Shown piece after piece: positions 5,707-39,916 of a stretch of 44,172 nt of DNA (its first letter is position 1; each line of letters opens with the position of its first letter). The DNA comes from a virus. The stretch lies in UHGV virus genome UHGV-1367777; one strand, given 5' to 3'. A program made the position numbers and the translations under genes. The notes under the pieces were generated by a model. The model was given only the letters and a program-made list of their open reading frames with translations. It was not told where the DNA came from and did not search any database.

Positions 5707-6819
5707 TTATAACTCCCTCAATTTACCTTCAAGCGATTCAACTTTTTTTGACAGAGCCTGAATAGCAAGCAAGGCGTCAAGAAGCAGGGCGTTATTGTCC
5801 AGGCTGTAACGCTCAGTGTCTTCTTGTGTATCAGGATTTCTGTCGAGGTTCAGATGAACGTACTGCGGGTCGATCTCCATTATTTCCTGGGCTATCACGC
5901 CACGACGTACAGCCCTTTTTTTGTCAGCTTTAAATACAAAACTTACAGGCCGCATACGGTTGATATTATCCAGGGAAACTATCGGGTCAATGTCTTCCAC
6001 ATCATCTTTGAAATTAATGTCAGAAGTCCCTGTTAATGCCAGGGTACCACCGGACTGCGGGAACATAACACCAAACGAATAGGCCCCACCAACATATTTG
6101 TAATAGTACAAATCATTACTGTTGATATACGCGAGACGACAGCGGACGGTACCCCCAGCCGAGTAGATTTCCATCTGACCATAACCGTCTCCGTTGGAGA
6201 TAAGCCTCAACTGAGACGAATAATTACCTCCCCCTACTAATAACCTTTGGCTGAAAGTAACGCCATCCGCATCAAGTAAAGGAACCACGTTTCCTGTAAC
6301 GCCAGTATCCTTCGTTGCTGATGTTCCCAAACCGAGGTTTGTGCGAGCGTCAGCGGCATTCGTTGCCCCGGTCCCGCCCTGGTTGACAGGAACAGCTCCG
6401 TTCGTTTTTAGGGCAGCGGTATTAGCCAGGTATCCCCACGAAGGCCCGGTGAACGTCTGACCATTCGGCAGCGTCACAGTTACGCTCTGTGAGTTGCTGT
6501 AGATGCTTCGCCAGTTGGTCGAGTCGGCGATCAGCATGCGCATTGCTTTTTGTGCCTGGGTGGTCACTCCCATGGTCGCAAGGGCCATCGACCCGACCGG
6601 GACCCCATCCCAGGCCAGGCCGGATGCCGTAGGGCCGTCGAAAGGCGCTGATAGAACGGCCGCCGTGTTACTCGTCACGGACTCCACCGCCAGCGTATAT
6701 GGCACCTGTCCGATTGTGACCACGACAAAGGCCCCGGCGGTTAACTCCGTGGTGAATGTGGTACCGGACCCGGTGAAGTTTTTACTGTTATTAGTTAGTG
6801 AAATAGTACCTGCCGACAT
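5707..6819 (-). CDS. side tail fiber protein with C-terminal intramolecular chaperone (S74-like autoproteolytic) domain
   Basis: Gly/Thr/Ser-rich fiber sequence with a GATNAADARTNLGLG motif. The C-terminal TSDINFKDDVEDIDP...coiled coil resembles the intramolecular chaperone domain of T5 pb1 and K1F endosialidase. Start set at MSAGT, which has an AGAGGTG RBS. Confidence 0.6.
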   Translation of the reverse strand: MSAGTISLTNNSKNFTGSGTTFTTELTAGAFVVVTIGQVPYTLAVESVTSNTAAVLSAPFDGPTASGLAWDGVPVGSMALATMGVTTQAQKAMRMLIADSTNWRSIYSNSQSVTVTLPNGQTFTGPSWGYLANTAALKTNGAVPVNQGGTGATNAADARTNLGLGTSATKDTGVTGNVVPLLDADGVTFSQRLLVGGGNYSSQLRLISNGDGYGQMEIYSAGGTVRCRLAYINSNDLYYYKYVGGAYSFGVMFPQSGGTLALTGTSDINFKDDVEDIDPIVSLDNINRMRPVSFVFKADKKRAVRRGVIAQEIMEIDPQYVHLNLDRNPDTQEDTERYSLDNNALLLDALLAIQALSKKVESLEGKLREL

Positions 6820-6829
6820 TCGGACACCT

Positions 6830-6865
6830 CTTAGTTGCAAAGATTAATTGGTTGCGCTATTGTTA
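6830..6865 (+). promoter_or_regulatory. promoter-like TTGCAA-N18-TATTGT with TTAGTTGC/ATTGGTTGC pair upstream of cor
   Basis: Motif copies 17 bp apart. Confidence 0.4.
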
Positions 6866-6900: not shown

Positions 6901-7146
6901 ATGAAAAGTTTAAAAGTCGCGATCGTGGGTGTTGCCGTTGGTCTTGCCCTGGCGGGTTGTACTGTGCGTGATGGCCTGCCGGGTATCGCTAAACCTGTTG
7001 TAGACCCAGCGCCTATCGAATGGGACGGCGAAGGCCATCTGGTGCGTGATACCGAAAAGCTACCGATGACGGGGGATTGGTGCCAGCATTATGACCACAA
7101 AGACCGTCGCTGGGGTAGTCCGTCAAACTGCGTAGCAGACTATTAA
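6901..7146 (+). CDS. cor: Cor-like superinfection-exclusion outer-membrane lipoprotein (moron)
   Basis: MKSLKVAIVGVAVGLALAGC is a lipoprotein signal peptide with a lipobox. The ~81 aa gene sits on the opposite strand between the tail fiber and J genes, flanked by palindromic terminators. The identification as Cor rests on position, size and lipoprotein signal, by analogy to the cor genes of phi80, T1 and N15. Confidence 0.5.
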   Translation: MKSLKVAIVGVAVGLALAGCTVRDGLPGIAKPVVDPAPIEWDGEGHLVRDTEKLPMTGDWCQHYDHKDRRWGSPSNCVADY

Positions 7147-7147
7147 T

Positions 7148-7175
7148 AAAGGGGCCAATTGGCCCCTTTCCTTTT
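7148..7175. terminator. bidirectional terminator with perfect palindrome GGGGCCAATTGGCCCC
   Basis: A-run then a 16-bp palindrome then a T-run. It serves cor (+) and J (-). Confidence 0.65.
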
Positions 7176-11633: not shown

Positions 11634-12364
11634 TCGGAAATTTCCTCTGGTAAATCTTTATGTCGCACCCATTTAACCACATTTTCCCGGAAATACCCGC
11701 CACCAAATGGGATCACGTCCGACAGGTTGCCGAAAGTGTGGTGTAGTAGCTGGTTATTCGGAAGGAAAATCCCGGCGTGGTTCGGGACGTCCGCCGCGAT
11801 CTGCATGATGACCATTGCGCCAGGGGTGTTTGGCTCGCACTCCCGGAACCCGGCGGAATACCAGTTATCCATGTAAAGGTTCTCACCCCGCGTCCACCAT
11901 TCATACGGAACGCGAAAATCGCGCAATTTAACGCCCTGTAGTGAATGCCACGCCATAACCAGCCCATAACAGTCCGTGACGCCGAGAACGAAACGGCGAC
12001 CCCTTAGCGGCTGTTCCTGGGGGTCTATCTCGGTGTACTCGCCATTCTCGGCAATGATGCCCCATACTACACCGCTGCCGTTGCATCCATTCACATCGGC
12101 CAGGCTCGCAGTCGGCTCAAGCTGGTCCGGGTGCGAGTGGATGACGCGGATGATTTCGCCCGCCTCTTCAGCCTGCATCCATTCGATATCGCTGATCGCG
12201 AATGAATCCAGGGTGGAACGGTTGCCGGAGGGGTCTGAAAATACGTTCGTGCACGGACGATAGAACTGTTTACGGCCAACCTGAACAACGAGGCCGCAAC
12301 ATTCGTGCGGCGCTTCGGCTTTCATGTGGGCGATGATTTCGCCCATTACTTTTTTAGTTAGCAT
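11624..12364 (-). CDS. K: tail tip assembly protein K-like (JAMM/MPN + NlpC/P60)
   Basis: HECCGLVV and the JAMM motif IHSHPD are present, in gpK position. Confidence 0.75.
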   Translation of the reverse strand: MLTKKVMGEIIAHMKAEAPHECCGLVVQVGRKQFYRPCTNVFSDPSGNRSTLDSFAISDIEWMQAEEAGEIIRVIHSHPDQLEPTASLADVNGCNGSGVVWGIIAENGEYTEIDPQEQPLRGRRFVLGVTDCYGLVMAWHSLQGVKLRDFRVPYEWWTRGENLYMDNWYSAGFRECEPNTPGAMVIMQIAADVPNHAGIFLPNNQLLHHTFGNLSDVIPFGGGYFRENVVKWVRHKDLPEEISEWL

Positions 12365-13564: not shown

Positions 13565-16210
13565 TCACCGTTTGTACAGGATGCCACCTGGCCGCGTTTG
13601 CTTCGCGATTTCGGCTTTCACCGCTTCGGTGATCTGCTTGCCGAACGCCGCCGCTGCCTGGGCGTTCCCGGTGCCGGATACCGATGTCGATGTCTGCCCG
13701 GTTCCCATGTTAACGTTCGTCTCGACGAAGATTCCCCCGGCAGCACCCGACGCCTGGACACCCAGCTTGCCGTCAGGTCCGCGCGTCAGTGGCATGATCG
13801 CTTCCGGTCCCGCCTCGCCCATCAACCCGGCACCGTTCGCGAACGCCTTCACGCCGTAGTTGAAGAACGTCGGCTGTGTGACAATCTGACCCGAGAATGC
13901 CGACAGATTACCGCCGGAATAAGCCCCGCCTTTCGCGTTCGCCGTCAGGCTGGCGAAGATATCCCCGAAGAGGGACCCGCCCGAACCTTTACCAAAGATG
14001 GACGCCAGCGACTTAAGAGCCGAGGACGTCGCCAGGCGGACCAGTTCGGCCAGCATGGTATTCACCAGGTCCTTAATACCGAATTTCCCCGTCGTGAAGA
14101 ATTCATCCAGGGAGTCCGTCATTGCGCTGAAGGTGAACTTCGTCAGACCTTCCATCTGCGTATAGGCGTTCCCGGTCTCGTCCACCATGTCCGCCAGTCC
14201 TCGACTGAAGCCTTCGAAGAGGGTGGCATTGTCGCCGCGCATCGCCGCTTGTGTTTCCTTCAGCTTCGCTACGGCCCGGTCCTGATCCTGTTGGCTGGCC
14301 CCGGCTCGCTGTAATCGGTCGATCAGTTCAAGCTGTTCGCGAAGGTTCGACGCCTCGCGGGTGGAAAGGGCATACCCCTCCGTGATCCCTTTTATTTCGG
14401 CGTTCTGGTTCTTTAGATACAAATCAACTTGCTGGTGTGCCTTCAACGTCTTTTCTACGGCGTCTTGACGTTTTGCTTCCTGTAGGATCTGCTCACGTAC
14501 CAGTTTGGTGCGCTCCATTTCGGCCATTTGCTGCCGTTCGGCAACTGTGAGCGTTCGCGTTTTGGCGGCCTCTTCCAGCGTCGCATATTCAGCATTCAGC
14601 TTGTTAAGTTCAGCCTGGGCTTTCGCCGCTCGTGTGCCGTCCAGGGCGTTGGCGGCTTGCTGTGCGCCTGCCGCTTTCAGCGCGGCTAACTCGGCCTGGG
14701 CGGACTCCAGCATCTTCAGGCCCGCGTCCACTTTCACCGCTGCGGCTTTCGCCACCTTCGGATCGGCGTATCGTTTGTTTGCCTCGGCCAGATACTTGTC
14801 ATATTCGGTTTGCGTGATAACACCCTGTTTAAGCAGGTTGTTAAGGCGCGTTTGTTCTTTGGCGCGCTTCTCCGCGTTGGTGGAGTATTGCGTTTCCAGT
14901 TCGTTACGTTCTTTCGCCTTGCGGTTCGCCTCCTCCTGGGCTTTCGCCTGCGCCTCAGTGTCCCGTGCTTCCTGGCGTTTTGCGGCCGAGGCTTTTGTGA
15001 GTACGCCCAGGGAACGATTAAGTTCGTCGATTTCCTGGTTCAGGTTGTTAATGCGGGACTGCTGCGCCTGCGTCGCCACCCCGTTCTGCTCCCGGATGGC
15101 TTTAGTCTCGGCGTTATACGCGGTGATCCGGTCCTGGAGGCGCTTACGAATATCCATTTCCTGCTCTGTGGTCGACTCCGCCCGGCCGATGTCCAGGATC
15201 GCGTTCCACATCGTTTTAGCCGCGCTGGTGACGGCCATCATTGCGCGCTCGACTGAGCCCATGTTGCCTTTGATTTCGGCGGACATGTCATCGAACGACT
15301 TAGCGGCAATTGAGTTGGCCTGGGCTACTGCTTCAGCCTCTTTCCCCTGGTTCTGAAGCTGCCGGACGTGCTCGACCTGCGCCTGGGTTACTACGTGGTA
15401 TTTATCCGCCAGGGCCTGGAGACCGCCGACCGGATCATTCGACAGTTTGCCGACCTGGTCGGCTACGTCTTCCAAAGGCTGGCCCGACGCTTTGGCGAAG
15501 TCCTGCACGGTTCTGGCGAGCCGTTCAAAGTCGGCACCCGCCTTCACGCCTGCATTAGCCAGCGCCTGGAGGCTGTTAAGAGTCCCACGGAATGATTTTC
15601 CGGCGGAGTCCGCATTCTCGGCCATGCGTAACATCTGGTCCGCCGTTAGCCCGGAAATGTTGCCCGTGAGAGTCAGCGTCTTATTAAGCGCCGCCATCTG
15701 CGACTCAGTCCGGCCTACCACGACCACCCCGGCGGTCAGCGCTGCCGTTACTGCGGTCAACGCAAGCCCTACAGGGCCAAGGAAGCCTACCAGCGCACGT
15801 AATGTATTACCCAGGCCGCCGAACGCGCCTGTTACCTGCGGAAGCTGCTGGAGAAGGACGCGGTATACGGGCATACCCATGTCGAGTGATACGACAACGT
15901 CCTGAAGCTGAAGCGCGGCGTTTCGGGTAGCGAACGCTACGTTCTTCTGTGTGGTGCCTAACTGCTGGGCGATCTTCTCCGTCTTAGTCATGTTGGTGGC
16001 GACAACGCCCGCCGCCCGACCTTCTTTTTCGAGGCCCTCCGCCGCTTCGGATGCCGTGGATTTAGTTTTGCGGTTCGCCTCGTTGAATTTGTTCGTCGCC
16101 GTCTCAGCTTGCCCGGACTTCTGAACAAGTTCGTCCATCGCCTTGTTCGCCACCGGAATCGAACTGGCGTCAACTTTGAGCGTTAAGCCCGCCGCCTGAT
16201 CTGCTGCCAT
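13565..16210 (-). CDS. H: tail tape measure protein
   Basis: 881 aa. Ala/Gln-rich coiled-coil repeats. Lies downstream of the G/GT chaperones and upstream of M, L, K. Confidence 0.85.
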   Translation of the reverse strand: MAADQAAGLTLKVDASSIPVANKAMDELVQKSGQAETATNKFNEANRKTKSTASEAAEGLEKEGRAAGVVATNMTKTEKIAQQLGTTQKNVAFATRNAALQLQDVVVSLDMGMPVYRVLLQQLPQVTGAFGGLGNTLRALVGFLGPVGLALTAVTAALTAGVVVVGRTESQMAALNKTLTLTGNISGLTADQMLRMAENADSAGKSFRGTLNSLQALANAGVKAGADFERLARTVQDFAKASGQPLEDVADQVGKLSNDPVGGLQALADKYHVVTQAQVEHVRQLQNQGKEAEAVAQANSIAAKSFDDMSAEIKGNMGSVERAMMAVTSAAKTMWNAILDIGRAESTTEQEMDIRKRLQDRITAYNAETKAIREQNGVATQAQQSRINNLNQEIDELNRSLGVLTKASAAKRQEARDTEAQAKAQEEANRKAKERNELETQYSTNAEKRAKEQTRLNNLLKQGVITQTEYDKYLAEANKRYADPKVAKAAAVKVDAGLKMLESAQAELAALKAAGAQQAANALDGTRAAKAQAELNKLNAEYATLEEAAKTRTLTVAERQQMAEMERTKLVREQILQEAKRQDAVEKTLKAHQQVDLYLKNQNAEIKGITEGYALSTREASNLREQLELIDRLQRAGASQQDQDRAVAKLKETQAAMRGDNATLFEGFSRGLADMVDETGNAYTQMEGLTKFTFSAMTDSLDEFFTTGKFGIKDLVNTMLAELVRLATSSALKSLASIFGKGSGGSLFGDIFASLTANAKGGAYSGGNLSAFSGQIVTQPTFFNYGVKAFANGAGLMGEAGPEAIMPLTRGPDGKLGVQASGAAGGIFVETNVNMGTGQTSTSVSGTGNAQAAAAFGKQITEAVKAEIAKQTRPGGILYKR

Positions 16211-16255
16211 GAGAATGTCCTCGTGTTAGTGTTGCCGATAGTTTACCCTGCGGCG

Positions 16256-16510
16256 ATGAATATGCGAATTTTCATTCAGTCTGAGGACGGAGGGGGCCAC
16301 ACCCCCCGTCCAGTCTGAAAGACTAGGCTTTGTCCCGGTCGTCCCGCCTGCGATTTTCCCTTATAAATCAGTTGGGGGACGCCGGGACGTCCCGTTTGTC
16401 CCGCACCGAAACGGGACAAATTTCTGTCCCGCTTACTTATCCACGGCAACTGCATAACTATTCAGGGGACGGATCGGGACGTCCCGCCATGTCCCGGTCG
16501 TCCCGCCCCC
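16256..16510. repeat. iteron-rich element copy A
   Basis: Contains the GC hairpin GACGGAGGGGGCC-aca-CCCCCCGTCC and the palindrome AGTCTGAAAGACT. There are about 6 (T)GTCCCGC units, a 12-bp palindrome CGGGACGTCCCG twice, and the DnaA-box-like TTATCCACG. About 85 percent identical to copy B at 34569-34775. Confidence 0.85.
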
Positions 16511-16544
16511 ACATTATGGCAACCAATTACGAAATATTTTAAAT

Positions 16545-16582
16545 AATTGGTTGCAGAATGCATGCAACCAAGTTATAGTCTT
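16545..16582 (+). promoter_or_regulatory. promoter-like TTGCAG-N16-TTATAG with ATTGGTTGC/GCAACCAA motifs; AT-rich stretch just upstream
   Basis: Motif copies at about 16519 (reverse), 16547 (forward) and 16564 (reverse). It sits upstream of the secreted moron gene. Confidence 0.4.
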
Positions 16583-16660
16583 CTCACACCGCACATCGAT
16601 CTGGCTGGCGGATGGTTCTTACCACTCTTTTAATAGTGAATATAAAATTAAGGTGAAATC

Positions 16661-17041
16661 ATGAAAATCAAACATATCGCCGTAAGCTTCCTCCTGGCCT
16701 CTGTGGTGGCGCTGCCGACCGTCGCTGTGTATAAGCACCTCATGCACGAAGAGACCGCCCAGGAAATGTGCAGCCGCACTGTCGACATTATCGCCAACGC
16801 GAATGGCGTCGTCGCCACTGAAACGAAGGACGAAATGCGCAACGCCTGTCTGTCAGTAGCCGACACGCATTCCGTGCTGACCAGCTTCACCCCGGCCGAT
16901 ATGCAGCGTCAGGAGAGCGACATTCAGTATGGTATGGCTAAGTCGTGGTCCGGGGCTTACGGGAAGGAATACACCGCGATCATGCAAGCGAGAATCGCCG
17001 GGTATGAGTGGGCTTACTACAAAGTGAAAAAGGACCGCTAG
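16661..17041 (+). CDS. secreted/periplasmic moron protein (126 aa, signal peptide)
   Basis: N-terminal MKIKHIAVSFLLASVVALPTVAV is a signal peptide. The gene is inserted on the opposite strand between GT and the tape measure gene. It has its own promoter region and a bidirectional terminator. Confidence 0.6.
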   Translation: MKIKHIAVSFLLASVVALPTVAVYKHLMHEETAQEMCSRTVDIIANANGVVATETKDEMRNACLSVADTHSVLTSFTPADMQRQESDIQYGMAKSWSGAYGKEYTAIMQARIAGYEWAYYKVKKDR

Positions 17042-17063
17042 GCGGTCCTTTGGGCGATTATCT
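17037..17063. terminator. bidirectional terminator AAAAAGGACCGC-tag-GCGGTCCTTT
   Basis: Perfect 9-bp stem with a flanking A-run and T-run. Confidence 0.6.
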
Positions 17064-17478
17064 CTTCTAAGGCGATGCCTTCCATGGTGCGGATGTCCTT
17101 GAAGGCCCTACGCTCGTCCTGGATGCCGTTTACCTTAAACAACCACGGCAATATCCCATAATCCAGCCCATACGCCCCGTTAAACCCGGTGCGCCACTGA
17201 GTACCCATCTGAATAAACACTTCAAACACGGGCCAGTTATCAGGCCAGATGCCGACAGGCGGCGCTAACTCTTCCGGCGAGGCCCCGAACAGGGCCATCG
17301 CTAAATTCTCGTCCGGTGGCGGCGCGCCATAATACCGTCGCACCGCCTCAATCAGTTTTTTTCCCGCAAGCCCATCAGTTCGAGATAGTAGGTCGAGTGG
17401 ATTGCACCGAACGCGCGCGGGTAGTTCACCAGCATGCGGCGAATGTTTCCGGCCGTGAACTCCTCTTTGAAGCCCCAC
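17038..17478 (-). CDS. T: tail assembly chaperone T segment (expressed as a G-T fusion by -1 frameshift)
   Basis: The ORF overlaps the 3' end of G in the -1 frame. The slippery sequence G GGA AAA AAC sits at the end of G. Confidence 0.7.
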   Translation of the reverse strand: MGLQRGVHGRKHSPHAGELPARVRCNPLDLLSRTDGLAGKKLIEAVRRYYGAPPPDENLAMALFGASPEELAPPVGIWPDNWPVFEVFIQMGTQWRTGFNGAYGLDYGILPWLFKVNGIQDERRAFKDIRTMEGIALEEIIAQRTA

Positions 17479-17714
17479 CCATCGGCAATATGCATGATCG
17501 CCGCCACCATCACGTCGAAACCTTTCGGATCGCCTTCTTCAAACTCTTCCAGCTTCTTCTGTGTCTCCGTCATGGTCTCGCTGAACTCATCGATCGGGTG
17601 ATGGATGAAGTGAATTGTCAGGACGCCGTCTTCCTTCTCGCCAGGGCGCGGGATTTTAACGTCGATCTTGAATTTAGGGTTCGGGTCGAGTGTGAAGGGT
17701 GCTACTTTAGCCAT
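17352..17714 (-). CDS. G: tail assembly chaperone G-like
   Basis: Start at MAKVAPF with a GGAG RBS. Acidic ~120 aa protein immediately after the major tail gene. Confidence 0.7.
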   Translation of the reverse strand: MAKVAPFTLDPNPKFKIDVKIPRPGEKEDGVLTIHFIHHPIDEFSETMTETQKKLEEFEEGDPKGFDVMVAAIMHIADGWGFKEEFTAGNIRRMLVNYPRAFGAIHSTYYLELMGLREKN

Positions 17715-17732
17715 TATCGTTTCTCCAATAAA

Positions 17733-17758
17733 AAAGGGGCCAATCGGCCCCCATAATA
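17733..17758 (-). terminator. terminator AAAAAGGGGCCaatcGGCCCCC after the major tail gene (T-run on the minus strand)
   Basis: Third copy of the GGGGCC-AAT-GGCCCC hairpin family. Confidence 0.55.
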
Positions 17759-17781
17759 ACGCGCAACCAAATAAACGCAAA

Positions 17782-18504
17782 TTACAGCGCGTCTACCAGG
17801 TCCTTCTGATAAATCATCATGTCGGACTGCATGGACAGCGCGACCTGTACCGTTTCGACGTTGTTAACTTCCGCCGACGGGATTTTGGTGAAGGCGATTT
17901 TAGATGCGTAGATACGAACTTCGCCCTTGCCGCCTGCCGCTGCCGGGTTAGTAAACTTAATCACGGTGTTCTGCTGGTTGTCGTCGAACTTCTCCAGGAC
18001 CGGGCGGATTGGGTCCGTCATGTCGTGGGTGAAGGTGTACGTCTGCACCAGCGGGTTTTTCGTGGTGTTCAGGCTGATCGCCGTAGTAACCTGCAACGGC
18101 TGGAAAGTCGTTGTCTGCTGGTCGCCACCGGACACGGCAACGTTCGTGATGTACGGGAAGTCGATGAACGAATCCAGCTTCACGATCTCGCCAGGCGTTG
18201 TGGAGTTGAAGGCGTTCGCCGGGTACTTCGACGTGTCGGAAGTATCGAAGCCCGCCAGGACCGCAGTGGTGGCCGTTACTTCGCCAACCAGGAAAGCCTG
18301 GTTAGTGGCGCGCACCCACGGGGATTTAGAGAACTGAACGATGTTACCCGCGACGATGCCGTGACCAGTTGGCAGAGTGATAACACAACCCACCGTCAGG
18401 TCAGAAATTGAGGCGGCGGCGTTGGTGGCACCCGTAACAGCGATGCCCGGACCAATCACGGATGCAAGCTGGACGCTCGAACCGTTCGGTAATTGATAAC
18501 CCAT
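17782..18504 (-). CDS. V: major tail protein (gpV-like)
   Basis: Position immediately upstream of G/GT. 240 aa, Thr/Ser/Val-rich. Confidence 0.7.
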   Translation of the reverse strand: MGYQLPNGSSVQLASVIGPGIAVTGATNAAASISDLTVGCVITLPTGHGIVAGNIVQFSKSPWVRATNQAFLVGEVTATTAVLAGFDTSDTSKYPANAFNSTTPGEIVKLDSFIDFPYITNVAVSGGDQQTTTFQPLQVTTAISLNTTKNPLVQTYTFTHDMTDPIRPVLEKFDDNQQNTVIKFTNPAAAGGKGEVRIYASKIAFTKIPSAEVNNVETVQVALSMQSDMMIYQKDLVDAL

Positions 18505-22863: not shown

Positions 22864-22912
22864 TAGCTTGCAACGCGTGATTGGTTGCATTAGTATTGGT
22901 TGCATCGAAACA
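22864..22912 (+). promoter_or_regulatory. promoter TTGCAA-N17-TAGTAT with two ATTGGTTGC copies
   Basis: Motif copies at about 22881 and 22896. Drives the + moron island. Confidence 0.5.
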
Positions 22913-22928
22913 CAACGGAGTTAAGACA

Positions 22929-23246
22929 ATGAGTGAAGCGCTGAAGAAGTTTTTATCTGAATGGCTGGAATGGGCTGAATCAGGAGCGCAAGGACATGAG
23001 GCCTTCGATCGCAGTTTCGGCCTGTGCGCTAACCTGGGATTTTGGCTTACAGAGAATATCCTGGATATCCCGTGGGAAGAAGCCGACACCGCAGAAAGGG
23101 AGTTCGGCCGTCTCCTGCATGACGAATTCGGCGATGAATACATGTACCCGTTTGGGCGTGTTGATTACCTTGTCCGGGGAAACAACGGTACTCAGCATTT
23201 AAACGAAGCGCGCCTGGCCTGGGCGCGCAAACAATTAGGAAAATGA
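22929..23246 (+). CDS. hypothetical protein (paralog of the C-terminal half of the 33891-34415 product)
   Basis: MSEALKKFLSEWLEWAESG...MYPFGRVDY...ARLAWARKQL aligns with LKQFLAEWLVWAETG...MYPFGKVAY...KRLAWVREML. Confidence 0.55.
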   Translation: MSEALKKFLSEWLEWAESGAQGHEAFDRSFGLCANLGFWLTENILDIPWEEADTAEREFGRLLHDEFGDEYMYPFGRVDYLVRGNNGTQHLNEARLAWARKQLGK

Positions 23247-23989
23247 GCATGAAACTGACAAACGAAATTCGTAATAAAATCCTGGCTAACATCGTTGCCG
23301 ATCACGCGGTCTCGGCCGAAGCGCGTACTGTTATCGACCGCTCACACGCCCTGGCTATGCAAGTTCTTAGCCTGGCGTACCCGAAAGGCGTAACGAACAA
23401 CGCCGAAATGGACGAGTGGTATCAAGCCGAGCGTAAGCGCACCGACACAGAGAGTATGTTAAGCACCAACTATTATCTGAACTACGTAACGGTGTACCGC
23501 GACCGAGACCGCAAAACGATCGGCATTCGCTCGGACAAGTTCGGCGTTAACGCAGGAGGACACGCCCGCGAACTGTTCCTAAGCGGAGATTACCACGATC
23601 AGGAAGGGCGTACGTTCGATGACTTTAGCCCGTGGATGGGTCCTATCGTGCCGGGCTACGCGTTGTCTAAGATGAAAGGCCTTCTCCAGTACGACGAGTC
23701 AGGCGCGTTGCAACGATTTTTCCTTCCGTACTCACGCGTGACTTTGAAGGGTCCAGCCCTCCTCGACGAGTTGGACGCGCTCGACCAAATGCGCCGTGAA
23801 GTGTGGGAGAAATACATCACGCTTCGGTCCGTAGTGTGGGCCACGCTGTCGAAATACAACTCAGACAGTAAACTGATCGAAGCCTGGCCGGAAGTGAAGC
23901 CGTTCATCCCGGCCGAGCAAAAGAAAACGGGCACGGCGGTAGCCCTCGATACCGCAACCTTAAACGCAATTTGTGGACTTCCTAAATGA
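23243..23989 (+). CDS. hypothetical protein (248 aa)
   Basis: ATGA-coupled to the upstream gene. No recognisable motif. Its 3' ~90 bp is tandemly duplicated downstream. Confidence 0.5.
   Translation: MSMKLTNEIRNKILANIVADHAVSAEARTVIDRSHALAMQVLSLAYPKGVTNNAEMDEWYQAERKRTDTESMLSTNYYLNYVTVYRDRDRKTIGIRSDKFGVNAGGHARELFLSGDYHDQEGRTFDDFSPWMGPIVPGYALSKMKGLLQYDESGALQRFFLPYSRVTLKGPALLDELDALDQMRREVWEKYITLRSVVWATLSKYNSDSKLIEAWPEVKPFIPAEQKKTGTAVALDTATLNAICGLPK
23885..23973. repeat. direct repeat copy 1 (~89 bp)
   Basis: Near-identical to 24022-24111: CTGGCCGGA(a/t)GTGAAGCCGTTCATCCCGGCCGAGCAAAAGAAAACGGGCACGGCGGT. Confidence 0.85.
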
Positions 23990-24322: not shown

Positions 24323-24560
24323 TCTCGTCCTGAAGCTCATAGACCTGCTGCCTCAACCGCCTACCACAATCCATGTTCTGCACGTCAATCATCAAATCAG
24401 CGTCCGGATCGGCAACCGGATCGGCGAACTTGCACGGCTCAGTTGTCATAGCCTTCGATAGTGTTGGCATTGGCCACGGCGCGCTGTTTGAGTTGCACCC
24501 GGTCAGTGCTGAAATTACACTTAGCATCAGTGCCAGTTTTAATGTACTTGACCACGTCAC
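24303..24560 (-). CDS. Rz1: o-spanin (Rz1-like outer-membrane lipoprotein)
   Basis: Lipobox ALTGC, Pro-rich, and overlapping the 3' end of Rz in another frame. Confidence 0.6.
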   Translation of the reverse strand: MTWSSTLKLALMLSVISALTGCNSNSAPWPMPTLSKAMTTEPCKFADPVADPDADLMIDVQNMDCGRRLRQQVYELQDEIKAARQ

Positions 24561-24774
24561 GATAAATCACCTCTGTTTTCTGTTCGCCCGCCGCGTCTGC
24601 TCGTGCGGCCTTCTCTGTGTTCTTCGCCTGCTGCCGTTGGAGTTTGGCCTGGCGGTCCTGGTAGTCACGGTTAACCTTCGCGCTGTGCGCGTCCCATCCC
24701 TGGCGATACCCGGTCTCCAGCAACCCCGCCATAACTACCAGCACGGCCAGGGTGCAAACAATGTATTTAATCAC
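24439..24774 (-). CDS. Rz: i-spanin (Rz-like)
   Basis: N-terminal TM anchor MIKYIVCTLAVLVVMAGLL followed by a charged coiled-coil periplasmic domain. The Rz1 ORF is embedded at its 3' end. Confidence 0.6.
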   Translation of the reverse strand: MIKYIVCTLAVLVVMAGLLETGYRQGWDAHSAKVNRDYQDRQAKLQRQQAKNTEKAARADAAGEQKTEVIYRDVVKYIKTGTDAKCNFSTDRVQLKQRAVANANTIEGYDN

Positions 24775-31140: not shown

Positions 31141-31327
31141 TTTTGGTCTTCGGCTTAGGCTTTTCCGGTTCCGGGATGGCAAATTCCCGCACCGCAGGAA
31201 GCTGGCCGATCAGCGCCGCCCGCGCACCCGCATCCGACTCAACCGCCAGCGCCTTCAGGATGCGCGACAGCTTATCCGCCTTACTCTCTAACATGCGTTT
31301 CTCCCCTTTCTCTCGGCAACGCCCCAC
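31124..31327 (-). CDS. hypothetical protein
   Basis: ORF after the endolysin. The start is ambiguous (31327 or MLESK at 31294). Confidence 0.35.
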   Translation of the reverse strand: MGRCREKGEKRMLESKADKLSRILKALAVESDAGARAALIGQLPAVREFAIPEPEKPKPKTKKAKAS

Positions 31328-31779
31328 TGGTCCCCGTCAAACAGCGCCACACGTCCTGTAGCGCGTCGAACGAGACCCGGCAACACTTTACCAGCCTGAT
31401 ACTTGAATGTCGGCAGGATGGCCCGCACACGCGCCCAGTTGCCGTCTCTGATAGCATCGTCCAGGTCATTGGCCTCGCCATCCGGCACGAGTGGGCCTGT
31501 CCCTGCGTTGATTCCCAGGTCCACCAGGGCGTCGAATTGAGCCTGGTTGATCGACGGGTGAACATACTTGTTCAGGGTGTCTACTACCTTCTGGACGTCG
31601 GCCTTCAGCAGCGCCAGCGCCTGATCGCGCGTAATGCTGTTTGGCGGTTTAGTCCCGGTATGGCCGTAACCCCAGGTGTAGATCCCGCGCTCCTGCTCTT
31701 TCTTCGTTGCGAAATACGGACGAGGCTGGAATGTCTCCCAGGCCGCCGTAAATCGTAACCCGTTATCGCTGAATTGCAT
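31288..31779 (-). CDS. endolysin, lysozyme-like, probably T4-lysozyme (GH24) type
   Basis: SDNGLRFTAAWETF with a catalytic Glu, and YTWGYGHTG, which matches the T4-lysozyme TIGYGHT signature. Confidence 0.75.
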   Translation of the reverse strand: MQFSDNGLRFTAAWETFQPRPYFATKKEQERGIYTWGYGHTGTKPPNSITRDQALALLKADVQKVVDTLNKYVHPSINQAQFDALVDLGINAGTGPLVPDGEANDLDDAIRDGNWARVRAILPTFKYQAGKVLPGLVRRATGRVALFDGDQWGVAERKGRNAC

Positions 31780-32050
31780 GTTTATCCCCTAGCCAGCTTC
31801 GGATTGAGTTGCGTAACGCCCGCAGCAAGAAAAGCCATAGCACAGTATGCAGAAGTGCGGGCGTTACGTGGTCATAGTAGACGGACATTAGCCCGGCGAT
31901 CCCCGTGAAGGCCGTTGAAAGGTACAGGACTCGCCCAAATAACCCGTCATTAACGCGCCGGGAGTACACGTTATACAGGGAGGCCAGCACCAGCGCCAGG
32001 AAAAAGAAATAACCCGGCAGGCCCTCTATCAGATTGAGTCCGTTGATCAT
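31763..32050 (-). CDS. holin
   Basis: 95 aa, 2-3 TM segments, charged C-terminus. Immediately upstream of the endolysin. Confidence 0.6.
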   Translation of the reverse strand: MINGLNLIEGLPGYFFFLALVLASLYNVYSRRVNDGLFGRVLYLSTAFTGIAGLMSVYYDHVTPALLHTVLWLFLLRALRNSIRSWLGDKHAIQR

Positions 32051-32379
32051 GGTTTGTCACCTCGCTGAAATGGAAATCGGATTTCACTGATTGCCATTTT
32101 TGCGCGTTCTGTGATCGGCATCCATAAGATAGCGCTGAAAAATCCCAACCCAGCAATACCCCTCGGCGAGGTAATACCCCACATTTCGGCGGCCCAGGGC
32201 GCACCGAACACGGCGAAGAAGAAGCCGATCACCACGTACACCACGAAATTCCATGTCCCTTTGGTGGCTTCAGGGTGCAGTCGCGCCCCGATAATACCCC
32301 CGGCAATGCCACCCAGGACGACAAGCGCCCAATCTCCAAACTGTTTGAACAGTTCCAAAATAAAATCCCCCGTGTGCAC
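32047..32379 (-). CDS. holin/antiholin-like membrane protein
   Basis: 110 aa with multiple TM segments. ATGA-coupled to the holin. Confidence 0.5.
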   Translation of the reverse strand: MHTGDFILELFKQFGDWALVVLGGIAGGIIGARLHPEATKGTWNFVVYVVIGFFFAVFGAPWAAEMWGITSPRGIAGLGFFSAILWMPITERAKMAISEIRFPFQRGDKP

Positions 32380-34436: not shown

Positions 34437-34568
34437 TTAAACTATTTTCGTGTGCGTGTGCGATCGCGATCTTAACGTTAGGACTAATCCGAGTTGCCGC
34501 AATCCAATCTGCGCACCTCCTATCTGTTGCCGACATCAATTGCAGTATGCTGCCGACAGTGTGCAAAA

Positions 34569-34775
34569 ATGAATATGCGAATTTCTATTCAGTCTGAAGA
34601 CGAGGGGGGCCGATACCCCCCGTCTAGTCTGAAAGACTGGGATTTGTCCCGCTCCGTCCCGCCCCTGAGAGCCGCGCCACGCCTGAGGGGGACGCCGGGA
34701 CGTCCCGTTTGTCCCGCTTCAATTTTGTCCCGCTTTTTGTCCCGCTTATTTATGCACGGCAACTGCATAACTATT
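34569..34775. repeat. iteron-rich element copy B
   Basis: Same architecture as copy A. It has the hairpin GACGAGGGGGGCC-gata-CCCCCCGTCT, the palindrome AGTCTGAAAGACT, three tandem TTGTCCCGC units, CGGGACGTCCCG, and the DnaA-box-like TTATGCACG. It lies just 3' of the primase-helicase gene. Confidence 0.85.
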
Positions 34776-38459: not shown

Positions 38460-39916
38460 TGCAGTCTGGATCTAACACCGAACACTCGATTCTCAGCCCG
38501 TCGGGATCTAAAAAGTGGCTGAACTGCGCCGCGTCGCTTGTGGTTGAGCAGGACTATCCGAACGAGTCCGGCCAGGCGGCGATTAACGGCACCGCAATGC
38601 ACACCGTGTCTGAGGTGGTGCTGAACCGGATTATCAACGAGGGTGCCGACCTGGACGCCCGAACCTATAAAGGGGCTTACGTTGAGGACGAGGGGAAAGG
38701 CAAGATTCGCGCGCACGTTAAGCCGCCGAAGGGCGGGGTACTGGTCAACGATGACATGGTCAAACAGTGTAACTCCTACATTGACCACTGGCGACCACTG
38801 CTCAACGTCTGTAAGTTCGTCCAGCTTGAAATGCGAGTCGACCTTACCCGCATCCTGCACAAAGGCGCGACGGTAACGGTCACGGACCCGCGCACTGGCG
38901 AGAAGTCGAAGGCGGAAGTCCAGACGTTCGGGACTGCCGATATGGTCATGCTGGTCCCGCAGTCGGATGGAACGTTCCTGCTCATCGTGGGCGACCTGAA
39001 GACCGGGCGGCACAAAGTGCATGCGAAGGAAAACAAACAGCTTATGCTGTACGCCCTGGGCGTCCTGCGCAAACTGCGCCGCCTGTACGATATCAGCATG
39101 GTTCGCCTGGTCATCTTCCAACCATACTGCGGCGGTGCCGATGAGTGGGACATCACGCCGGACGGCCTGGACATCTTCGCCAAGTTCGCCAGTAAGCGCG
39201 CCCTGGCCGCGATCGACGCGCTGGAGAAGGGTAAGAAAGGTCTGAAGCCTGCGGACTTCAAGCCGAGCGCCGACGCCTGCGAGTGGTGCCGATTCGCTAA
39301 CGACTGCGGGGCCAGGGCGAAAGCCGCCATTGCGACGCTGCGACCGTCAACGGCAACCGATGACGACCTGGCGGACACGGCGGATAATACCGAAGCGTCA
39401 CCGGAAGAGATCGCGAACCACGAGCGCAATATGGAACGCAAGGCCCGCCGTGAAGCACGCAAGGCCCGCCGTGAAGCACGTAAAGCGCGCCGGGAAAAGC
39501 GCAAGCCTGACCAGTACGCTATGACGCCGGAAGAACTGAAAGTGGCGTATGACGACCTGGACATGATGCGCCAGCACATCAAGCGCATTGAGGATGCCGT
39601 GTTTAAGGCTGTGTTGCAGGGCGAAGGTAAAACCCTGGGTCTTAAGATGGTAGCTGGCAAGGAAGGGAACCGGGCGTGGGGTGACAAAGACGCCGTCCTG
39701 GACATGCTGACTAAATCACGGGTCAAAAAAGACCTGTTTATCAAAGAATCGCTCTTCAGCCCTGCTGATGCCGAGAAGGTTCTGAAAGACGAGAAGCCAG
39801 CAGTATGGGCGAAGTTGCAAGCGCAGATCAAACGCGCCCCAGCTAAGCCTACCCTGGCACCTATCGATGACCCACGCCCGGAATGGTCCGAGGCGACTGA
39901 CGAGGATCTGGAATGA
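38459..39916 (+). CDS. PD-(D/E)XK nuclease, Cas4/RecB-like with C-terminal Cys cluster (DUF2800-like) plus ~190-aa charged C-terminal extension
   Basis: GTADMVMLV...IVGDLKTGRHKV and QLMLYALG motifs. CEWCRFANDCG is a 3-Cys cluster. Internal ATDDDLAD and 3x RKARREA repeats. Confidence 0.7.
   Translation: MQSGSNTEHSILSPSGSKKWLNCAASLVVEQDYPNESGQAAINGTAMHTVSEVVLNRIINEGADLDARTYKGAYVEDEGKGKIRAHVKPPKGGVLVNDDMVKQCNSYIDHWRPLLNVCKFVQLEMRVDLTRILHKGATVTVTDPRTGEKSKAEVQTFGTADMVMLVPQSDGTFLLIVGDLKTGRHKVHAKENKQLMLYALGVLRKLRRLYDISMVRLVIFQPYCGGADEWDITPDGLDIFAKFASKRALAAIDALEKGKKGLKPADFKPSADACEWCRFANDCGARAKAAIATLRPSTATDDDLADTADNTEASPEEIANHERNMERKARREARKARREARKARREKRKPDQYAMTPEELKVAYDDLDMMRQHIKRIEDAVFKAVLQGEGKTLGLKMVAGKEGNRAWGDKDAVLDMLTKSRVKKDLFIKESLFSPADAEKVLKDEKPAVWAKLQAQIKRAPAKPTLAPIDDPRPEWSEATDEDLE
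39437..39499 (+). repeat. 21-bp tandem repeat (2 perfect + 1 degenerate) encoding the RKARREA heptad
   Basis: CGCAAGGCCCGCCGTGAAGCA x2 seen directly. Confidence 0.8.

What the first reader, a model, noticed from the sequence alone, without database searches (positions are those of the whole stretch)
16661..17041. Secreted-protein moron inserted on the opposite strand between the GT tail chaperone and the tape measure gene, packaged with iteron element A
A 126-aa ORF with a clear Sec signal peptide, its own promoter region and a perfect bidirectional terminator interrupts the otherwise lambda-canonical V-G-GT-H-M-L-K-I-J order. Morons at this position are commonly lysogenic-conversion or superinfection-exclusion functions. 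This phage appears virulent, which makes a periplasmic effector interesting. Candidate roles are superinfection exclusion, receptor masking, or inhibition of a periplasmic or envelope defence.
Basis: partly seen in the sequence, partly recalled or inferred. Interest (0 to 1): 0.55.

Follow-up and report, generated by a model that had tools for sequence, protein, structure and literature searches.

The report
Orphan exported-protein gene inside tail operon
A small, probably secreted protein gene of unknown family sits backwards between two tail genes of a virulent Dhillonvirus-like phage; it is a real, selected gene that most likely acts in the cell envelope, perhaps by keeping other phages out, but this kind of insertion is already known.

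Summary
Window 16661-17041(+) is a 126-codon ORF with a Shine-Dalgarno site, a sigma70-like promoter and a 10-bp hairpin. It lies antiparallel between the G/GT tail chaperone genes and the tape measure gene of a phage collinear with virulent Dhillonviruses.

It is a lineage-specific insertion. In 17 Dhillonvirus loci the same spacer holds only a GTCCCG repeat element and no gene. That repeat element is therefore ancestral and is not part of the moron.

Three metagenomic relatives carry a two-gene cassette. The window lost the upstream gene through a 317-bp deletion and kept ORF126.

The ORF is under purifying selection (dN/dS 0.11; 39 of 54 differences at third codon positions).

No homologue exists outside this lineage in any sequence, family or structure library searched. 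The structure model shows an N-terminal signal-like segment and a four-helix bundle with two invariant cysteines.

A Sec signal peptide is plausible (TVA|V here, AVA|V in relatives), but no dedicated predictor was available.

Function is inferred only. The best guess is an envelope-level block of superinfection, analogous to HK97 gp15, which sits at the same locus. The hairpin has a proper U-tract only on the tail-operon strand. Interest is modest.

The parts
16661..17041 (+). ORF126. A 126-aa orphan protein with a predicted signal peptide or anchor (residues 1-22/24) and a mature four-helix domain of about 104 aa. Cys37 and Cys63 are invariant.
   Evidence: dN/dS is 0.11; differences by codon position are 13/2/39. 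The AF2 model has pLDDT 72 and pTM 0.66.
16661..16726 (+). Predicted Sec signal peptide. n-region MKIKH, h-region IAVSFLLASVVA, c-region LPTVA, with a candidate SPase I site TVA|VY (AVA|VY in L005/L006).
   Evidence: and inspection of the sequence. No dedicated predictor was run.
16650..16656 (+). Shine-Dalgarno site AAGGTGA, 4 nt before the ATG.
16551..16579 (+). Sigma70-like promoter TTGCAG-17 nt-TATAGT. The -35 hexamer is embedded in a TTGGTTGC box.
   Evidence: The hexamers and boxes are conserved in L003 and L005 while the spacer sequence diverges.
16519..16571 (.). Three TTGGTTGC/GCAACCAA boxes (16519-, 16547+, 16564-) forming dyads around the promoter. The same box marks other intergenic promoters of this phage and of Dhillonviruses.
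16591..16664 (+). 3' remnant (last 24-26 codons) of the upstream cassette gene (123 aa in relatives). The rest was removed by a 317-bp deletion. The remnant now forms the 5' UTR of ORF126.
17029..17051 (.). 10-bp perfect hairpin. Its CTAG loop holds the stop codons of both ORF126 (TAG) and T (CTA on the + strand). The U-tract is canonical only for the minus (tail) strand.
16255..16508 (.). Flanking GTCCCG 'iteron element A' (11 copies, a G-rich hairpin and the DnaA-box-like TTATCCACG at 16437-16445). It is ancestral to the site and is not part of the moron.
17038..17780 (-). Tail assembly chaperone genes G (17352-17714/17780) and T (frameshift product, 17038-17343+). This is the upstream flank of the insertion.
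13565..16210 (-). Tape measure protein gene. This is the downstream flank of the insertion.

Best explanation
ORF126 is the surviving gene of a lineage-specific, opposite-strand two-gene cassette. The cassette was inserted between the stop codon of the tail chaperone T gene and the ancestral GTCCCG repeat element, upstream of the tape measure gene, in a virulent Dhillonvirus-like siphophage.

Shown:
- It is a real gene under purifying selection.
- It has no relatives outside this lineage.
- Its promoter-like site carries the phage's own TTGGTTGC-box architecture.

Inferred:
- It is transcribed by host RNA polymerase independently of, and antisense to, the tail operon, together with the phage's non-structural genes.
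- The product is exported by Sec. Its signal peptide is probably cut after Ala22. The mature protein of about 11.5 kDa folds in the periplasm as a four-helix bundle, probably pinned by a Cys37-Cys63 disulfide.

Inferred by analogy only:
- In the envelope of the infected cell it interferes with a periplasmic or inner-membrane step of infection by incoming phages. The most likely target is tape-measure-dependent genome entry. That would make it a superinfection-exclusion function that complements the receptor-level lipoprotein encoded at 6901-7146.
For: Real gene:
- dN/dS is 0.11 and dS is 0.61 against L005.
- Differences by codon position are 13/2/39, and the signal region is conserved at the protein level.
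- The Shine-Dalgarno site and ATG are present.

Insertion:
- 17 Dhillonvirus loci have a T-TMP spacer of 258-403 bp containing only GTCCCG repeats.
- Only the window, L003, L005 and L006 carry the cassette.

Retained after loss of its partner:
- A 317-bp deletion removed gene 1 and left ORF126 intact.

Promoter:
- TTGCAG-17-TATAGT and three TTGGTTGC boxes are conserved in L003 and L005 although the spacer sequence diverges.
- The same box, with an A/T-rich upstream stretch, precedes several other gene clusters.

Export:
- The n/h/c organisation, the proline at -4, and TVA|V or AVA|V at the candidate site.
- In the model the N-terminus is not part of the folded domain.
- Two invariant cysteines lie on adjacent antiparallel helices, roughly equidistant from the connecting loop.

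Analogy:
- HK97 gp15, the founding moron, lies at the same T/TMP junction. It is an envelope protein that blocks genome injection in a manner dependent on the tail region (PMC3594210).
- Lytic phages express exclusion proteins early, and the T5 llp gene lies adjacent to its receptor-binding protein gene (PMC9586334).
- T4 has Imm and Sp (PMC11436027).
- In this window the lipoprotein gene next to J co-varies with the J C-terminus: both find their best matches in the same phages, including EP23, PNS1, Maverick and HH3. Antiparallel envelope genes placed next to the virion gene they relate to are therefore already a habit of this phage.
Against: - There is no functional evidence of any kind.
- The protein is an orphan. 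Pfam, PHROGs, NCBIfam, PADLOC, PDB sequences, Foldseek against PDB and BFVD, the 5.8-billion and 1.84-billion protein searches, and three contig collections returned nothing usable.
- It has no sequence similarity to HK97 gp15.
- Signal-peptide cleavage is not verified. The uncharged stretch of 19 residues is also long enough for a membrane anchor.
- The structure model comes from a single sequence and has only moderate confidence.
- The family is known from only four contigs, so a dispensable or niche role is likely.
- GC and GC3 match the phage, so the gene does not look like a recent capture from the host.
Confidence: 0.4

Rival explanations
1. Same gene and same locus, but the N-terminal segment is not cleaved. 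ORF126 would be a bitopic inner-membrane protein (N-in, C-out) that acts at the inner membrane like HK97 gp15 or P22 SieA, blocking channel formation by incoming tape measure proteins.
For: - The uncharged stretch I6-Y24 has 19 residues and a Kyte-Doolittle score of 2.19, which is long enough to span a membrane.
- Positive charges precede it (MKIKH).
- HK97 gp15 at the same locus is an inner-membrane protein.
Against: - Pro19 and the small residues at -3/-1 (TVA here, AVA in L005/L006) give a textbook SPase I c-region.
- K25 directly follows the stretch, so charge bias across it is weak.
- There is no similarity to gp15.
Confidence: 0.25
2. ORF126 is a periplasmic regulator of lysis timing or envelope integrity, for example an RI-like antiholin or an inhibitor of a muralytic activity, rather than an exclusion factor.
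For: - It is a small helical periplasmic domain behind an N-terminal hydrophobic segment, with two cysteines. From general knowledge, this is the same gross architecture as T4 RI and T4 Sp.
- It appears to be expressed from a non-structural type of promoter.
Against: - It lies far from the lysis genes: the holins and endolysin at 31288-32379 and the spanin near 24439-24774.
- No fold or sequence match to any solved structure, which would include RI and Sp entries in the PDB.
- It is absent from all Dhillonviruses, which lyse normally.
Confidence: 0.12
3. ORF126 is a counter-defence or host-takeover factor acting on a host envelope or periplasmic target, for example an envelope-associated abortive-infection or exclusion system of a resident prophage. 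In that case it benefits the phage's own infection rather than blocking other phages.
For: - Its distribution is narrow and accessory-like: four contigs.
- It was retained when its operon partner was lost.
- The T/TMP junction is a recurrent accessory-gene slot. L021 carries a different three-ORF cassette there.
Against: - No match to any known anti-defence or defence family.
- Most known anti-defence proteins are cytoplasmic (general knowledge).
- Nothing ties it to a particular host system.
Confidence: 0.15
4. The insertion matters mainly as a transcription insulator of the tail operon: a terminator after T plus promoter boxes before the tape measure gene. On this reading the ORF is a hitchhiker with little function.
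For: - The hairpin is a canonical terminator only for the tail-operon strand.
- Dyad TTGGTTGC boxes could also serve a minus-strand promoter (TTAAAA-18-CATAAT).
Against: - The ORF is under strong purifying selection.
- The candidate minus-strand -10 is not conserved: CATAAT in the window against CAAAAT in L005 and CAAAAG in L003 (read from the L003 and L005 sequences).
- Dhillonviruses express their tape measure gene without any such insert.
Confidence: 0.05

Closest known systems
HK97 gp15 moron (YebO-like inner-membrane superinfection-exclusion protein)
   Same: - The insertion point is the same, between the tail assembly chaperone genes and the tape measure gene (PMC3594210).
- Both are small proteins with an N-terminal hydrophobic segment aimed at the envelope.
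- Both have their own transcription signals and are absent from close relatives.
   Different: - No sequence similarity.
- 62 aa against 126 aa.
- gp15 is on the same strand as the tail genes, while ORF126 is antiparallel.
- HK97 is temperate and gp15 acts from the prophage. This phage is virulent.
- gp15 has bacterial YebO homologues. ORF126 has none anywhere.
- ORF126 probably loses its signal peptide.
T4 Spackle (Sp) and Imm, early exclusion proteins of a virulent phage
   Same: Small envelope-targeted proteins made by a lytic phage to stop genome entry by later phages (PMC11436027). Sp is a signal-peptide-bearing periplasmic protein (general knowledge).
   Different: - No sequence or fold match to any PDB chain.
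- The genomic context is different.
- The target of Sp, the tail lysozyme gp5, has no evident counterpart here.
T5 Llp and Cor lipoproteins (receptor-blocking exclusion proteins of T5, T1, phi80, N15 and Dhillonviruses)
   Same: - Small exported proteins.
- Encoded in the tail module next to the virion gene they relate to.
- Often antiparallel and expressed early (PMC9586334; SSL-2009a gp27 Cor).
   Different: - ORF126 has no lipobox cysteine and no similarity to the Cor or lipoprotein PHROGs.
- The window already has a separate lipoprotein gene in that role and position (6901-7146).
Opposite-strand three-ORF cassette at the T/TMP junction of IMG/VR contig UViG_2700989012_000001 (L021)
   Same: - Same junction and same antiparallel orientation.
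- TTGGTTGC boxes lie upstream.
- The carrier is a phage of the same broad group, with 57% major-tail-protein identity.
   Different: - The proteins are unrelated: a 70-aa DUF7301-like protein, a 117-aa protein and a 58-aa protein.
- No GTCCCG element lies between T and the contig end.

Membership tests
Phage moron (Juhala/Hendrix sense) | Inserted between two genes that are adjacent in related phages. | tested here: met
   17 Dhillonvirus loci have only the non-coding repeat element between T and TMP. Only the window, L003, L005 and L006 carry the cassette.
Phage moron (Juhala/Hendrix sense) | Own promoter. | tested here: inconclusive
   TTGCAG-17-TATAGT is conserved in three lineage members. 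This is sequence evidence only; there are no expression data.
Phage moron (Juhala/Hendrix sense) | Own factor-independent terminator. | tested here: inconclusive
   A perfect 10-bp hairpin follows the stop codon, but the U-tract on the ORF's strand is weak (UUUGGG) and is absent in relatives. It is canonical only on the opposite strand.
Phage moron (Juhala/Hendrix sense) | Base composition different from the surrounding genes. | tested here: not met
   ORF GC is 0.559 and GC3 is 0.74. The window GC is 0.565 and neighbouring genes have GC3 of 0.68-0.78.
HK97 gp15 / YebO family | Sequence similarity to gp15 or YebO. | tested here: not met
   BLASTP finds no alignment with E <= 100. No homologues at all in the protein searches.
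HK97 gp15 / YebO family | Location between the tail chaperone and tape measure genes. | tested here: met
HK97 gp15 / YebO family | Blocks genome injection of superinfecting phage. | not testable with these tools
   Requires expression and infection assays.
Sec (SPase I) signal peptide | Positively charged n-region, hydrophobic h-region of about 7-15 residues, and a polar c-region with small residues at -3/-1. | tested here: met
   MKIKH / IAVSFLLASVVA / LPTVA|VY, and IPAVA|VY in L005/L006.
Sec (SPase I) signal peptide | Score from a trained predictor, or experimental cleavage. | not testable with these tools
   No SignalP, DeepTMHMM or Phobius was available. An uncleaved anchor is not excluded.
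Cor / Llp exclusion lipoproteins | Lipobox with an invariant cysteine (L-x-x-C). | tested here: not met
   There is no cysteine before residue 37. For contrast, the LAGC lipobox is present in the separate gene at 6901-7146.
Cor / Llp exclusion lipoproteins | Match to the Cor or lipoprotein family profiles. | tested here: not met
   No PHROG or Pfam hit for ORF126. As controls, SSL-2009a Cor hits phrog_1119 and the window lipoprotein hits phrog_12984.
T4 Spackle / RI-like periplasmic helical proteins | Fold or sequence similarity to the solved structures. | tested here: not met
   The best Foldseek E-value against the PDB is 3.1, and phmmer against PDB sequences finds no hit at E <= 10. The model has only moderate confidence.

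The most novel reading that the evidence does not exclude
ORF126 founds a new class of periplasmic superinfection-exclusion or entry-blocking protein in a virulent siphophage. It would be genetically linked to the tape measure gene because it targets tape-measure-dependent passage of DNA through the periplasm and inner membrane. Together with the receptor-level lipoprotein next to J, it would give a two-layer exclusion system.
Probability: 0.3. Interest if true: 0.55.

Novelty: new member of a known kind. Interest (0 to 1): 0.33.

Why it matters
If ORF126 blocks phage entry from the periplasm, it would be a new, structurally unrelated tool for studying how siphophage tape measure proteins carry DNA across the periplasm and inner membrane. 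That step is still poorly understood.

It would also add to the evidence that the chaperone/tape-measure junction is a preferred slot for entry-related accessory genes in both temperate and virulent phages. For phage cocktails, such genes determine which phages can co-infect.

As it stands, this is a well-documented orphan accessory gene confined to four metagenomic genomes. The kind of element, an envelope-protein moron in a tail operon, is already known.

Tried and rejected
1. Homology searches for ORF126 all returned nothing beyond its own lineage. This covers Pfam, PHROGs, NCBIfam, PADLOC, PDB sequences, tblastn against 50,697 phage records, the 5.8-billion-protein word search, the exhaustive HMMER scan of 1.84 billion representatives, and pattern scans of IMG/VR, JGI metagenomes and GTDB genomes.

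2. The single marginal hit, P0002 (E 5e-4), was rejected. It is a 1072-aa Fibrobacter-type protein with repeated fibronectin-type-III (FN3)-like domains. The match aligns the query's signal segment to a beta-rich repeat four times over.

3. Foldseek of the AF2 model against PDB and BFVD gave no match with E < 0.5.

4. The upstream cassette gene (P0003) was examined for a functional clue. It has no family hits, and its AF2 model is unusable (pLDDT 48), so no fold search was run on it.

5. I first thought the ATG start in the window (GTG in L003) compensated for lost translational coupling after the deletion. L005 and L006 have an ATG and an intact upstream gene, so ATG is probably ancestral, and I dropped the idea.

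6. 'Iteron element co-transferred with the moron' was rejected by the comparative survey.

7. Rfam found no known RNA family anywhere in the window.

8. A conserved minus-strand promoter that re-initiates tape measure transcription was not supported, because its -10 is not conserved.

9. Literature searches found no description of the Dhillonvirus GTCCCG elements.

Full report
**What is at the coordinates**

Window 16661-17041(+) is an ATG-initiated ORF of 126 codons. An AAGGTGA Shine-Dalgarno site precedes it at 16650-16656.

It is flanked on the opposite strand by the tail genes:
- the major tail protein at 17782-18504 (Phage_tail_3, phrog_584);
- the tail assembly chaperone G at 17352-17780 (Phage_TAC_4);
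- its frameshift extension T at 17038-17478 (DUF1799);
- the tape measure protein at 13565-16210 (TMP_2, Tape_meas_lam_C).

The slippery run GGGAAAAAAAC at the end of G leads into the T frame.

**What the phage is**

- There is no nucleotide-level match in 50,697 phage records.
- The major tail protein is 74-75% identical to that of Dhillonviruses.
- The whole window is collinear, in reverse orientation, with Dhillonvirus SSL-2009a at roughly 30-85% amino-acid identity.
- Every large genuine ORF has a Dhillonvirus counterpart, so there is no room for an integrase. From general knowledge, Dhillonviruses are virulent.
- The best matches of the C-terminal part of J and of the lipoprotein gene next to it are phages of Escherichia, Shigella and Enterobacter.

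**The ORF is a real gene**

Only four contigs carry it: the window, L003 (98% identity), and L005 and L006 (87% identity).

Window against L005:
- dS is 0.61, dN is 0.069 and dN/dS is 0.11. These values are similar to those of the neighbouring G gene.
- The 54 nucleotide differences fall 13/2/39 on codon positions 1/2/3.
- Codons 1-25 show 9 synonymous-only changes against 3 conservative replacements, so the N-terminal segment is translated and constrained.
- GC (0.559) and GC3 (0.74) are the same as in the rest of the genome.

**It is a lineage-specific insertion, and the iteron element is not part of it**

- In 17 Dhillonvirus loci the T-TMP spacer is 258-403 bp. It holds 7-14 GTCCCG copies and no credible gene.
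- Alignments A2 and A6 show that the spacer element is homologous in the window lineage and in Dhillonviruses.
- In Dhillonviruses the last repeats abut the stop codon of T. In the window lineage about 530 bp (about 850 bp in L003 and L005) are intercalated between those repeats and the T stop codon. The intercalated DNA comprises a promoter region, gene 1, ORF126 and a hairpin.
- The element is therefore ancestral at this site and was not transferred with the moron.
- A second copy of the element (window 34565-34775) lies just 3' of the helicase-primase gene. It is also conserved in SSL-2009a.

**The cassette and its decay**

- In L003, L005 and L006 a 123-aa gene precedes ORF126 and overlaps its start (ATGA, or GTGA in L003).
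- This upstream gene is also an orphan.
- The window lacks 317 bp relative to L003, with an ACC microhomology at the junction. Only the last 24-26 codons of gene 1 remain, and they now form the 5' leader of ORF126.
- ORF126 is thus kept without its partner.

**Expression signals**

TTGCAG-17-TATAGT lies at 16551-16579. Its -35 hexamer is embedded in a TTGGTTGC box, and two further inverted boxes flank it.
- In L005 the hexamers and the three boxes are conserved while the sequence between them has diverged.
- The box is over-represented in the window: 71 matches at one mismatch or fewer against 43 expected.
- It occurs, often in pairs and behind an A/T-rich stretch, in front of many gene clusters of this phage. 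These include the replication-side clusters and the lipoprotein gene.
- It is also present in SSL-2009a and in L021.
- Several of these sites have a good -10 hexamer 17 bp after the TTGCAx part of the box (read from the sequences).

I infer that ORF126 is wired into the phage's own promoter class and is transcribed independently of the tail operon. This has not been shown.

The hairpin at 17029-17051 has a perfect 10-bp stem, and its CTAG loop carries the stop codons of both convergent genes. A canonical U-tract follows it only on the tail-operon strand. On the ORF's own strand the tail is UUUGGG here and UCUGUG in the relatives. 'Bidirectional terminator' is therefore only half right.

**The protein**

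MKIKH is followed by 19 uncharged residues (Kyte-Doolittle score 2.19). Pro19 and TVA|VY (AVA|VY in L005 and L006) give a textbook n/h/c signal peptide with a possible cleavage after Ala22. An uncleaved anchor cannot be excluded without a predictor or an experiment.

The single-sequence AlphaFold model has pLDDT 72 and pTM 0.66. It leaves the N-terminus out of the fold and gives four helices: 33-48, 53-67, 78-96 and 102-125. The two invariant cysteines (37 and 63) sit on the first two antiparallel helices, roughly equidistant from the connecting loop. This fits a disulfide in an oxidising compartment, but that is an inference.

No family, sequence or fold match was found in any resource. The one marginal hit is a repeat artefact.

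**Likely function**

Nothing here tests function. The best-supported analogy is HK97 gp15.
- It is the original moron and sits at the same chaperone/tape-measure junction.
- It inserts into the inner membrane and blocks genome injection in a way that depends on the tail region of the incoming phage (PMC3594210).

Lytic phages also make such proteins early in infection. T5 Llp is encoded next to its receptor-binding protein gene (PMC9586334), and T4 has Imm and Sp (PMC11436027).

In this window a second antiparallel gene has the same promoter box and its own hairpin. It encodes a lipoprotein (LAGC lipobox, phrog_12984) directly after J, at the place of Cor in SSL-2009a. Its best homologues are in the same phages that best match the J C-terminus.

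My preferred reading is therefore an exported protein that blocks a periplasmic or inner-membrane step of entry by later phages. Linkage to the tape measure gene is the hint to its target. I put the whole chain at about 0.4. Within it, the individual claims stand at:
- real gene and insertion, about 0.95;
- exported, about 0.75;
- exclusion function, about 0.35.

The rivals are an uncleaved membrane version of the same idea, a lysis-timing regulator, an envelope-directed counter-defence factor, and a mere transcription insulator.

**Novelty**

The kind of element is known. The protein family is new but tiny and uncharacterised. The T/TMP junction looks like a recurrent accessory slot: HK97 gp15, this cassette, and an unrelated three-ORF antiparallel cassette in L021. 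Interest is modest unless the function is shown.

Noticed in passing
window 16255-16508 and 34565-34775; L004 (SSL-2009a) 11826-12076 and 39705-39800: A non-coding element of about 210 bp occurs twice in direct orientation: in the T-TMP spacer and just 3' of the helicase-primase gene. Both copies are conserved between this phage and Dhillonviruses, and are better conserved than many proteins. The element contains a G-rich hairpin (GACGAGGGGGG..CCCCCCGTC, with a G-C/A-T swap at its base between lineages), the palindrome AGTCTGAAAGACT, 7-14 GTCCCG repeats often 9-10 bp apart, a DnaA-box-like TTATNCACG at the homologous position in both copies (16437 and 34750), and an ATGCA..TGCAT dyad. It looks like a pair of replication origins. 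No description was found in the literature searched.
   Followed up: partly
window 2678/2695, 4359/4376, 6831/6848, 16519/16547/16564, 22881/22896, 34412/34425, 34782/34798, 37540/37549, 43927/43939: The octamer TTGGTTGC recurs, usually in pairs 9-17 bp apart and behind an A/T-rich stretch, in intergenic regions and mostly in the direction of the downstream gene. In several cases TTGCAx of the box lies 17 bp before a good -10 hexamer. The box is also present in SSL-2009a (21 copies) and L021. It is probably a clade-wide promoter or operator motif, comparable to the intergenic repeats described for T1/TLS.
   Followed up: partly
window 6901-7146 (+): A second opposite-strand gene in the tail module, between J and the tail fibre gene. 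It encodes an 81-aa lipoprotein (LAGC lipobox, phrog_12984) and has a TTGGTTGC-box promoter and a bidirectional-looking hairpin at 7149-7169. It occupies the position of Cor in SSL-2009a but is unrelated to Cor. Its homologues lie directly after J in EP23, PNS1, Maverick and HH3, the same phages that best match this J C-terminus. It is probably a receptor-level exclusion lipoprotein.
   Followed up: partly
L003 4315-4686; L005 6001-6372; L006 230-601; remnant at window 16591-16664: The relatives carry an additional orphan gene of 123 aa, predicted cytoplasmic, that overlaps the start of ORF126. The window lost it through a 317-bp deletion with 3-bp microhomology. It has no family hits, and its structure model is unusable (pLDDT 48).
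   Followed up: yes
L021 5973-6714 (-) and boxes at 6755-6831: A more distant relative (57% major-tail-protein identity) has a different antiparallel cassette of three small ORFs directly after T. One is weakly DUF7301/phrog_1785-like and one has an HTH-like C-terminus. TTGGTTGC boxes lie upstream, and there is no GTCCCG element before the contig end. This suggests that the T/TMP junction is a recurrent accessory-gene slot.
   Followed up: partly
window 17735-17763 (-): Between the major tail protein gene and G there is a strong terminator-like hairpin (GGGGGCCGATTGGCCCCT followed by TTTTTT) preceded by a TTGGTTGC box. Together with the minus-strand terminator after T, this would give stepwise attenuation along the tail operon.
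   Followed up: no
window 23243-23989 (+), with boxes at 22881/22896: An opposite-strand cluster inside the head module encodes an Nmad5 (nucleotide-modification-associated) domain protein. It corresponds to the 'hypothetical' gp07 of SSL-2009a.
   Followed up: no
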